Shown here: one piece after another, positions 54,501 through 57,500 of the stretch
Layout: each line of letters begins with the position of its first letter
Position numbering within the stretch: the first letter of the stretch is position 1
NCBI RefSeq assembly: GCF_964204645.1
Contig: NC_134025.1
Coordinates: forward strand, 2,356,001-2,420,000
DNA: 64,000 nucleotides
From: Tubulanus polymorphus
Lineage: Eukaryota; Animalia; Nemertea
Direction: 5' to 3'
Program-made: the position numbers and the translations under genes
Notes under the pieces: model-generated
The model's database searches: none
What the model was told of the DNA's origin: nothing
What the model saw: only the letters and a program-made list of their open reading frames with translations

Positions 54501-57500
54501 ACTGATAGAAATTACTTGTACATAGAAGCTTCATCAGGTAAATGAGTTTCATTTACTCATTTACCTGAAGCCTCTATGTACAAGTGGCTAAAGTTCGTAA
54601 TTAAACTATTAAGCCTACACTGTACCGCATGTCTTCATGTTTGACTTGATGCAACTACAACTCTTCATATATAAAGTGACAAATTATCGAATGCCTATTT
54701 TACGTTGATGATTACAGGGTCAGCCGAAGGGTTTAACCTTGCCGACAAAACTATAAATTCGGCGGCTAAATCGGGACGTTGGGTTATGTTGAAGAACGTT
54801 CATTTAGCTCCTCAGTGGTTGGTGCAGTTAGAGAAAAAACTACATAGTTTAACCCCGCACCCACAGTTCAGATTATTCCTTACAATGGAAATCAATCCGA
54901 AGGTATGAATGTGTTCAATTATTCTTTAAGAGATCCCGTGGTCTAAGATGGTGCTATAATGTTTTATGTAAATTATATATTTGTAGCTACCGGTGAATCT
55001 GTTACGTGCTGGACGTGTATTTGTGTTTGAACCGCCACCTGGTGTCAGAGCTAACTTACTACGAACATTCAGTACTATACCAGCAACTAGAATGTGCAAG
55101 GTATGAATTCCATGATTGATCCTTGAATTCTCTAAGCCATATATCGACTCTTAAGCTCTACGCTTTTTGGTCTTGGCCGGCTAAAAACATTTTGAACTTT
55201 CCGGAAAAAAAGACAGTAGTCGTATGGGATGGCAACACGATTGAAGCTTTCATCACAGTAGCAGTATCTCTGTACGATAGGCTATTACCATTAGTTACAC
55301 TGTCTAAGAGTTAATATCTTAACAGCATGTTTGATGTGTGTGTATTTCAGGCTCCTAATGAACGTGCTAGGCTGTACTTCCTATTAGCCTGGTTCCACGC
55401 TATCACTCAAGAGCGTTTGAGATACGCTCCTCTCGGTTGGTCGAAGAAATACGAATTTAACGAATCTGATTTGCGTTGCGCTTGCGACACAATCGACGTG
55501 TGGATCGATTCTGTGGCGATGGGTCGTACGAATTTAGCTCCCGAGAAAGTTCCGTGGGACGCCTTGAAAACACTTCTATCTCAGTGTATCTACGGTGGAA
55601 AGATTGATAATGAATTTGATCAGGTAAGAAACGTCTTTCATTTTACATGTCCTTTAACAGGGTGGCCACTGATCTGGAAAACTTGGAAAACTCATTGAAT
55701 CTATTAAAAATCAGGAAACTTGACAAATTCTACCAAAAACCTGGAAAACTTGGGGAATTGAGATAATGCTATTGACCATGTTCTTTCTTAATCAATACAT
55801 GATTCAATGAAAAATCAATGAATTGTAACATTTTTAACCTAGAAATTTGTAATCGCGTGGAAAACTCGGGGAAACTCTGGGGATGTCTTGTTGAATTAAA
55901 CTCGCTTTCCTTTGCATATACACATAATACAGAGCACTCCCACTTCATTGTGACTATCTGTCACAACAACTGTGACTGCAGAAAAACCTTTATCACTGCT
56001 TTATGGCTCTATTTTTTAATTCATTAATTTGTTTTTGTTTCAGCGTCTGTTGACGGCTTTCCTTCAGAAATTGTTCACGATCAAGACTTTTGATTCTGAT
56101 TTCGTATTAGTTGGTGGCTCGAATGTGAAGAAATCAATTGTAATGCCTGATGGAATAAGGTTTGTAGTTGATCGATCAGTTTTCATGGCAAATCAATGAT
56201 TCATGTATTTGCTTAAATAACTATTTCGTTACTTGTGTTTTAAGACGTGACCAGTTTGTCCAATGGGCCGAACACTTGATGGATCAACAGACACCGGCTT
56301 GGCTCGGATTACCGAACAACGCCGAGAAAGTACTGCTCACTAACCAGGGTAAGCTTCGTAATAAGTATCACAAATGTATCGATGATAACCGTGGGCTATT
56401 TATTACAAAAAAATACCGCAAAATGTTTAACATCGAAATGTTTATTGCATGTTACATAATTTAGCGCTGGAACTAAGTAAAGATTGTATGCGTCTGCAGC
56501 TAGTGGAAGATAACGAAGAAGATAAACCCGACAAAGATTCCGGTTCATAAATTATCATTACATCGGTTTATGGGGACTATTAAATGTGTTGGCTTTGGTG
56601 CAGGGGTCAGTTGTTCGAATCATGACTGCTTCAGTTGATAGTTTCCGTGTTTTTTATAGCGCATCTATCAGTAAAGTCGTCATAGCAAAACTGGCTGTAA
56701 GATTCCTAGTTTCAGGTCAAACCTCTCGAAGAACAATTTCGTGTTCGATTTTAGAGGCATTTTTTCGTTCATCCATCAATTCTTTCTACTTTTTGAATAT
56801 CTTAGTTATAATTTCTGTTAGCCATTTTCTTTCACCCTTGGATTTGTGTTTTCCTTGATCCATTTCCACGTGTTGAAATTAGTTCAATTTCATTGAGTTA
56901 ACTCCTGAGTCAAAACTGAACTGACAGTGGAACTGGGTCCTGGTTCATCCTGCTTTTTATCCTCTGAAAGATCCCCAAAAGTTGATTAGAATGTTGGGAA
57001 TTTCGGCAAGTCTCATCGGTTACACAGTTCTCGGTTTGACTCTAAACAGTTGAATTTACCATGGTTTATTTCCAATGTTATAACCTGGCAGAGAACTGCA
57101 GAACTGTGGGTCCTGAATCTCTACTCTGAACAGGGTGTACCGGGAATGACTTGAGATATTTCAAAATATTTCAGGTGGAGAAATCATCGGAAAAATCTTG
57201 AAGATGCAGCTGTTGGAAGATGATGATGAATTGGCGTATAGTCCGGGAGAGGGAAAGAAACAACGATCGGGAAGTACATCAGATGGACGTCCGGCGTGGA
57301 TGAGAACACTTCATTCATCAGTTCACAACTGGCTGAAACTCGTACCGAAGGTAATAAAAAAACCAAACAATAACTACTATAAACACTAGTATCACTTCTA
57401 TTAAATATCCTGTCCATCTCATATTTGTAGGAGCGATATCGGGTAAAATTAATTTTTACTGGAGCAGGGAACGATTAACATAGCTTGTCAAAGTTTTCTC

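What the first reader, a model, noticed from the sequence alone, without database searches (positions are those of the whole stretch)
56349..57350. Duplicated alternative terminal exon predicted to make a natural 'cap-less' (yeast-like) cytoplasmic dynein
Seen: after the exon ending [17 protein letters not shown] (donor 56349), a 116-nt intron ends at a TTTAG acceptor. In the correct phase it reads [31 protein letters not shown] (56465-56550). This aligns with the start of the normal next exon, [22 protein letters not shown] (57175): E-[L/I]-x-K...[M/L]-[R/K]-[L/M]-QL-[V/L]-ED-[N/D]-[E/D]-E. ATTAAA lies 28 nt after the stop, followed by TGTGTTGGCTTTGGTG. Use of this exon would replace the last 314 aa with 28 aa. 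Established: this is the helix after AAA6 that precedes the ~30 kDa C-terminal cap; budding-yeast dynein keeps the helix but lacks the cap, and engineered cap removal has been reported to raise force and processivity of mammalian dynein. Inference: exon duplication plus intronic polyadenylation gives this animal a switch between capped and cap-less dynein motors. I know of no description of such a natural metazoan isoform, but this needs a literature check.
Basis: partly seen in the sequence, partly recalled or inferred. Interest (0 to 1): 0.92.

Follow-up and report, generated by a model that had tools for sequence, protein, structure and literature searches.

The report
Duplicated exon lengthens dynein's cap tether
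In ribbon worms the gene for the cell's main inward-transport motor, dynein, carries a duplicated mini-exon shared by two distant species, which is likely spliced in optionally and would roughly double the flexible tether holding the motor's regulatory cap, rather than cutting the cap off.

Summary
The duplicate is real; the 'terminal exon, cap-less motor' reading is probably wrong. The window holds the cytoplasmic dynein-1 heavy chain gene; four database proteins named Tubulanus polymorphus (Nemertea) map onto it letter for letter. The segment at 56465 copies the start of the next exon in register, second of 2,445 AG-preceded peptides. Lineus longissimus, another nemertean class, has the orthologous copy (10/19 identical, above all 110 normal segments). 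There it is an internal 25-residue insert in 4 of 7 annotated isoforms, skipped in 3, and all 7 keep the cap. Best reading (0.62): a 78-nt cassette, 56465-56542, that would supply the second half of helix H1 and lengthen the hinge to the cap by 26 residues. Against it: the Tubulanus donor is very weak, the copy is fast-evolving, and 0 of 4 Tubulanus models include it. A stronger donor at 56606 and an ATTAAA lie beyond the stop, so cap-less or poison use in this species stays open (0.17 and 0.09). Nine literature searches found no description.

The parts
12530..59830 (+). Cytoplasmic dynein-1 heavy chain gene, coding span (72-74 exons by isoform)
   Evidence: P0180, P0273-P0275 map exactly with GT/GC-AG introns; Pfam domain set
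56245..56348 (+). Upstream exon: end of the AAA6 lid and the first ~9 residues of helix H1; ends in phase 1
   Evidence: models of homologues place the junction inside H1
56349..56464 (+). 116-nt intron to the duplicated exon; acceptor 4.36 bits (15 of 74 true acceptors score no higher)
56465..56542 (+). Duplicated exon read as a 78-nt in-frame cassette (26 codons): diverged second half of H1 plus acidic/basic tail
   Evidence: profile rank; orthology with the Lineus insert; frame open into 57175
56543..56548 (+). Weak in-phase donor GTTCAT (2.82 bits; 1 of 74 true donors scores no higher)
56548..56550 (+). TAA reached if the 56543 donor is not used
56579..56584 (+). ATTAAA, candidate polyadenylation hexamer, at background frequency
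56606..56611 (+). Stronger donor GTCAGT (6.42 bits); would give a 141-nt stop-bearing exon with the stop 55 nt before the junction
57175..57350 (+). Normal exon: second half of H1, hinge and first cap helix; joined directly to 56348 in contigs of X5 and X6
57957..59830 (+). Remaining cap-coding exons and stop codon
60442..60471 (+). AATAAA and the poly(A) site of the normal transcript (22 loose A letters behind 60471 in one X5 contig)

Best explanation
The segment 56465-56542 is a tandem duplicate of the start of the next exon, shared with Lineus longissimus, and is likely an optional in-frame cassette exon that would replace the second half of helix H1 and lengthen the hinge to the C-terminal cap by 26 residues while keeping the cap. 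The upstream exon boundary falls in the middle of H1 (predicted in models of two homologues), so on inclusion the copy would continue that helix, and the normal second half would be pushed into the tether as a spare amphipathic helix (inferred). The animal would then make short-tether and long-tether dyneins; a longer tether would let the cap move further from the ring and could tune processivity, force or motor-motor contact (inferred from published hinge and cap experiments, untested). Shown: duplication, register, shared ancestry of the two copies, skipping in Tubulanus contigs, inclusion and skipping in Lineus database models. Not shown: inclusion in Tubulanus, any effect on the motor.
For: Lineus isoforms X1-X4 carry a 25-residue insert at exactly this junction, X5-X7 lack it, all 7 keep the cap. 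The two copies share 10 of 19 residues (BLOSUM 57); the Tubulanus copy scores at most 37 against 110 distinct normal segments; their K-D pair at codons 6-7 occurs in 0 of 110; 0 of 200,000 shuffles reach 57. A 22-sequence, 20-column tree joins the copies at 93.7/97 (short alignment, long branches). The species lie in different classes and their whole chains are 83% identical. In the window an in-phase GT stands after 26 codons, one more than the Lineus insert, and the 78-nt route is open into 57175. Junction-to-cap distance is 31-49 residues in 258 of 262 proteins and 61 in the four Lineus inclusion forms. H1 runs across the junction in both models (residues 46-70 and 340-361; pLDDT about 45-60, low) and is followed by a 21-27-residue coil. 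PMC4339881 reports that stiffening the hinge lowers processivity in Dictyostelium (cited there from another paper).
Against: The donor at 56543 is near the bottom of this gene's range: 1 of 74 true donors scores no higher and 16% of 1,308 decoy GTs score as high or higher. 0 of 4 Tubulanus models include the exon. The Tubulanus copy lies on a long branch (1.02 against 0.02 for Lineus) and has lost conserved hydrophobic positions. A stronger donor at 56606 competes and would include the stop. The Lineus evidence is automated annotation; its read support and genomic DNA were not seen. An in-phase GT is not rare (4 of the 27 codons offer one), so its position is only modest support. Only two nemertean species were available.
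Confidence: 0.62

Rival explanations
1. In Tubulanus the copy serves, at least in part, as a last exon (cleavage after ATTAAA, or the 141-nt form escaping decay) and yields a cap-less heavy chain with H1 and a short acidic tail; it may be derived from the cassette by weakening of the donor.
For: Very weak donor at 56543; stop two codons later; ATTAAA 28 nt on, with GT-rich sequence behind it and a second T-rich run about 55-75 nt downstream; the conserved part ends near the rat truncation point, rat 4,348, about codon 15 of the copy (a two-residue rat-human offset is assumed); fast change on the Tubulanus branch fits a changed role.
Against: The orthologue is internal in Lineus; 0 of 11 full-length nemertean models lack the cap. 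Of 149 anchored proteins of 4,000 residues or more, 2 end early (130 and 261 residues after the anchor, one named partial) and neither ends at the hinge. The hexamer is at background frequency and the first GT-rich run abuts it, whereas the real site is cut 24 nt behind its hexamer.
Confidence: 0.17
2. The copy was a working cassette in the nemertean ancestor and in Lineus but has recently fallen out of use in Tubulanus and is decaying.
For: Weak donor, middling acceptor, long branch, 0 of 4 models include it.
Against: Acceptor, phase, register and a stop-free frame all persist (only 16.8% of 18,479 intronic 27-codon windows are stop-free); several changes are conservative.
Confidence: 0.12
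3. In Tubulanus the copy is spliced from the stronger donor at 56606 as a 141-nt stop-bearing (poison) exon that sends the message to nonsense-mediated decay and so lowers dynein output.
For: The donor at 56606 is the best GT/GC between 56465 and 57100 (6.42 bits); the stop would lie 55 nt before that junction, with 4-5 more junctions behind it.
Against: A poison exon needs no protein-level likeness to H1, yet 10 of 19 residues are shared with the Lineus insert, which is in frame there.
Confidence: 0.09

Closest known systems
Cassette exons born by tandem exon duplication (established concept, recalled)
   Same: Homologous to the neighbouring exon, same phase at both ends, length a multiple of three, included or skipped in annotated isoforms.
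   Different: Only the first 26 codons of a 176-nt exon are copied, and the boundary lies inside a helix of the motor, so inclusion would both swap half of H1 and lengthen the hinge.
Mutually exclusive exon of Schistosoma mansoni DHC1 (PMC3228551, passages seen)
   Same: A duplicated exon in a cytoplasmic dynein heavy chain gene of a spiralian.
   Different: Here the two are included in tandem and lie at the H1/hinge. The window has a separate either-or pair at 47902-48097 and 48426-48621.
Engineered rat MD-deltaCT and budding-yeast dynein (PMC4339881, parts 1-2 of 6 and the Fig. 1 legend seen)
   Same: A product ending at 56550 would keep H1 and lack the cap.
   Different: It would carry 13 more residues than the rat construct and a diverged H1; the supported product keeps the cap.
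Nematostella vectensis DYNC1H1 isoform X1 (P0302) against X2 (P0162)
   Same: An optional insert that lengthens the same hinge (18 residues).
   Different: The insert lies mid-hinge and shows no H1-like second hit; database annotation only.

Membership tests
Cytoplasmic dynein-1 heavy chain | DHC_N1/N2 tail, six AAA modules, stalk, Dynein_C cap; closest to DYNC1H1 | tested here: met
Cassette exon from tandem duplication | Homology in register to the adjacent exon | tested here: met
   2nd of 2,445 AG-preceded peptides; same phase and offset
Cassette exon from tandem duplication | AG and GT in the same phase, length a multiple of 3, open frame | tested here: met
   78 nt, no stop into 57175; donor weak
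Cassette exon from tandem duplication | Skipping and inclusion transcripts both exist | tested here: inconclusive
   Skipping seen in X5 and X6 contigs; both forms only as Lineus annotations; inclusion not seen for Tubulanus
Cassette exon from tandem duplication | Conserved in relatives | tested here: met
   Lineus orthologue; one other species only
Alternative last exon (intronic polyadenylation) | In-phase acceptor and in-frame stop on read-through | tested here: met
Alternative last exon (intronic polyadenylation) | Polyadenylation signal above background | tested here: inconclusive
   ATTAAA present; 9.5% of 60-nt intron windows hold a hexamer
Alternative last exon (intronic polyadenylation) | No onward splicing from the exon | tested here: not met
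   The orthologue splices onward in 4 of 7 Lineus models; two donors exist in the window
Alternative last exon (intronic polyadenylation) | Poly(A) ends mapped behind the exon | not testable with these tools
   Only assembled contigs were served
Mutually exclusive exon pair | Similar length and matching end phase, one or the other included | tested here: not met
   78 nt phase 1-1 against 176 nt phase 1-0; both present in tandem in Lineus
Poison exon (decay-coupled) | Stop more than about 50 nt before a downstream junction (rule recalled) | tested here: inconclusive
   55 nt if donor 56606 is used; use not seen
Yeast-like cap-less dynein | Chain ends right after H1 | tested here: not met
   All 11 full-length nemertean models keep the cap; a read-through product would end 13 residues past the rat cut
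Yeast-like cap-less dynein | High stall force and processivity | not testable with these tools
   Needs single-molecule assay

The most novel reading that the evidence does not exclude
One duplicated exon acts as a three-way switch on dynein's cap in ribbon worms: skipped (short tether), included in frame (long tether), or, in Tubulanus, read through its weakened donor to a stop and poly(A) site, giving the first natural cap-less cytoplasmic dynein-1 of an animal.
Probability: 0.17. Interest if true: 0.85.

Novelty: new variant of a known kind. Interest (0 to 1): 0.47.

Why it matters
The cap sets force and run length of dynein in engineered motors, and the hinge's flexibility has been reported to matter, but PMC4339881 leaves open how cells regulate the cap. 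A splice choice kept by two nemertean classes that swaps half of H1 and about doubles the tether is a natural variant that can be put into a standard motor construct and tested. A second, unrelated hinge insert in Nematostella models suggests that hinge length is a recurring splicing target. The finding sits in automated Lineus models but was not found in print (searches; open-access library only). If the terminal use were real it would be a natural cap-less animal dynein and far more striking.

Tried and rejected
No whole genome is held for the window. Run search: no RNA holder listed by record; X5 and X6 (one sample) proved to have GT-AG spliced contigs. They give no cover of 56386-56566, and X7 had nothing laid; contigs drop rare variants, so this says nothing against inclusion. 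The 27-residue copy alone found 0 solved structures at E up to 10. Metagenome scan: 9 loci (half of the collection scanned); 2 of 9 (L002, L008) have an intron at this junction and neither holds a second H1-like segment. Search of 50%-cluster representatives with the Lineus region: 150 of 152 hits listed, no further tandem or terminal copy recognised; the best copy-like scores were ordinary single H1 segments of distant dyneins. Scan for a second H1-like segment: 4 Lineus proteins and one stray hit 97 residues on (P0025) among 259. An internal acceptor at 57283 that would make the copy an either-or partner scores 1.53 bits (4 of 74 true sites as low) and is not used in any model: rejected. Earlier in-phase GTs in the copy (after 56476, 56485, 56491) score below all 74 true donors: rejected. 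The minus strand of the intron has no long open frame. No structure of an inclusion form was predicted; both models are of skip-type homologues (P0002, P0322). Earlier scan findings: none returned. Supplements of the papers were not read; the rat construct boundary comes from a figure legend.

Full report
What the window is. Positions 12530-59830 (+) encode a cytoplasmic dynein-1 heavy chain. Four database proteins whose source name is Tubulanus polymorphus isoforms X1-X4 map onto the window letter for letter through 72-74 exons, with the full Pfam domain set including Dynein_C at residues 4333-4662. Spliced contigs of runs X5 and X6 (one sample) confirm the 3' introns, including the direct join of 56348 to 57175, and one X5 contig ends in a poly(A) run at 60471, 24 nt behind an AATAAA.

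The observation. The copy and the normal exon align without gaps from their phase-1 acceptors; DNA identity is 35 of 86. A profile built from 73 distinct homologous segments ranks the copy second of 2,445 AG-preceded stop-free peptides in the window (12.7 bits; true exon 41.3; third 2.5) and second of 45,282 overall; 116 of 200,000 shuffles reach its score. That the second-best match lies in the intron directly before the best one, in the same phase, makes duplication secure. The copy is diverged: normal homologues score 33-52.

The decisive comparison. A search for full-length relatives returned a Lineus longissimus protein with an insert at exactly this junction. In that cluster 4 of 7 full-length isoforms carry the 25-residue insert and 3 lack it; all 7 go on through the normal exon to a complete cap. 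In the Tubulanus cluster 0 of 4 carry it and all 4 keep the cap. The insert is the orthologue of the window's copy: 10 of 19 residues identical, BLOSUM 57, against at most 37 between the copy and any of 110 distinct normal segments; the shared K-D pair occurs in 0 of 110; 0 of 200,000 shuffles reach 57. A tree on 20 columns and 22 hand-picked sequences joins the two copies at 93.7/97 and the two normal nemertean segments at 90.8/96; with so few columns this is supporting evidence only. The species belong to Palaeonemertea and Pilidiophora and their chains are 83% identical overall. The duplication therefore predates their split, and the copy has kept its frame and about half its residues, which points to long use as coding sequence (inference). 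The Lineus isoforms are automated models; I did not see their read support or DNA.

Splice signals in the window. Matrices from the gene's 74 donors and 74 acceptors: the acceptor at 56465 scores 4.36 bits (15 of 74 true sites no higher; 13% of 1,021 decoy AGs as high). The in-phase donor at 56543 scores 2.82 bits (1 of 74 no higher; 16% of 1,308 decoy GTs as high). It gives 78 nt, one codon more than Lineus, open into 57175. A better donor at 56606 (6.42 bits) lies past the stop and would give a 141-nt exon with the stop 55 nt before the junction. AATAAA or ATTAAA occurs in 9.5% of 60-nt intron windows and in 28 of 77 introns, so the hexamer carries little weight; a T-rich run 55-75 nt behind it keeps it possible. 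The Tubulanus copy has changed much faster than the Lineus one (branch 1.02 against 0.02). These points weaken the claim that Tubulanus still includes the exon in frame, and they keep the last-exon, poison and decay readings alive.

What inclusion would do. PMC4339881 (parts 1-2 of 6 and the Fig. 1 legend read) describes a helix H1 leaving AAA6, a disordered hinge of about 20 residues and a 32-kDa cap. On inclusion the copy would therefore form the second half of H1, and the normal half plus its acidic patch would join the tether. Junction-to-cap distance is 31-49 residues in 258 of 262 proteins and 61 in the four Lineus inclusion forms. The paper reports that cap removal raised rat dynein's stall force from about 1 to 5.5 pN, and cites reduced processivity in Dictyostelium after cap removal or hinge stiffening; bioRxiv 10.1101/182576 (passages) suggests the cap may contact a neighbouring motor. 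A longer tether could thus tune these properties; this step is inference and untested. A read-through product would end 13 residues beyond the rat cut (rat 4,348, about codon 15, assuming a two-residue rat-human offset), nearer the distal Dictyostelium cut that was non-processive, so 'yeast-like high force' would not follow automatically.

Distribution. No second H1-like segment was found outside Lineus among 259 anchored proteins (one stray hit), among the listed 150 of 152 representative hits, or in the 2 of 9 metagenome loci with an intron here. Most of these are proteins, which cannot show an unannotated intronic copy, so 'nemertean-specific' is provisional. Nematostella isoform X1 has an unrelated 18-residue insert in the same hinge.

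Literature. Nine searches of the open-access library (listings only unless stated) found no description of this exon or of a natural cap-less animal isoform. PMC3228551 (passages) describes a mid-gene either-or exon in Schistosoma DHC1; PMC5100056 (passages) notes that splice forms exist and were not analysed. Subscription papers and supplements were not seen.

Verdict. A real, conserved duplicated exon; most likely an optional hinge-lengthening cassette (0.62), less likely a last exon giving cap-less dynein in Tubulanus (0.17), a decaying exon (0.12) or a poison exon (0.09). New variant of a known kind; interest 0.47.

Noticed in passing
window 47902-48097 and 48426-48621 (+): Either-or exon pair of 196 nt each in the stalk/microtubule-binding region (residues about 3284-3349); both are used in Tubulanus models, and Lineus models have two variants at the same place. 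Whether it is the exon published for Schistosoma was not tested.
   Followed up: partly
window 53414-53443 and 59004-59060 (+): Optional 30-nt exon (before AAA6) and 57-nt exon (inside the cap) in Tubulanus models X1/X2; the 57-nt one is skipped in X5 and X6 contigs.
   Followed up: partly
window 28850-29485 (-): Uninterrupted 212-codon frame for a Ras-family GTPase (Pfam Ras E 2e-47; looks Rho-like, label recalled) nested antisense in the 12.7-kb intron 20129-32841.
   Followed up: partly
window 7276-8061 (+): Open frame with a CAP (cysteine-rich secretory protein) domain, E 3e-22, upstream of the dynein gene.
   Followed up: partly
window 4433-5872: Tandem-repeat stretch that reads open in all three + frames.
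   Followed up: no
P0302 residues 4366-4383 against P0162: Nematostella isoform X1 has an 18-residue insert in the same hinge, a possible independent hinge-length switch.
   Followed up: partly
window 55662-55842 and 58015-58376: High contig depth in run X2 (660-2,900 against about 5-80 elsewhere) marks repeated elements in two introns.
   Followed up: no
L008 762-1375 and L006 224-904: Other animals split the H1/hinge exon with extra introns at other positions.
   Followed up: no
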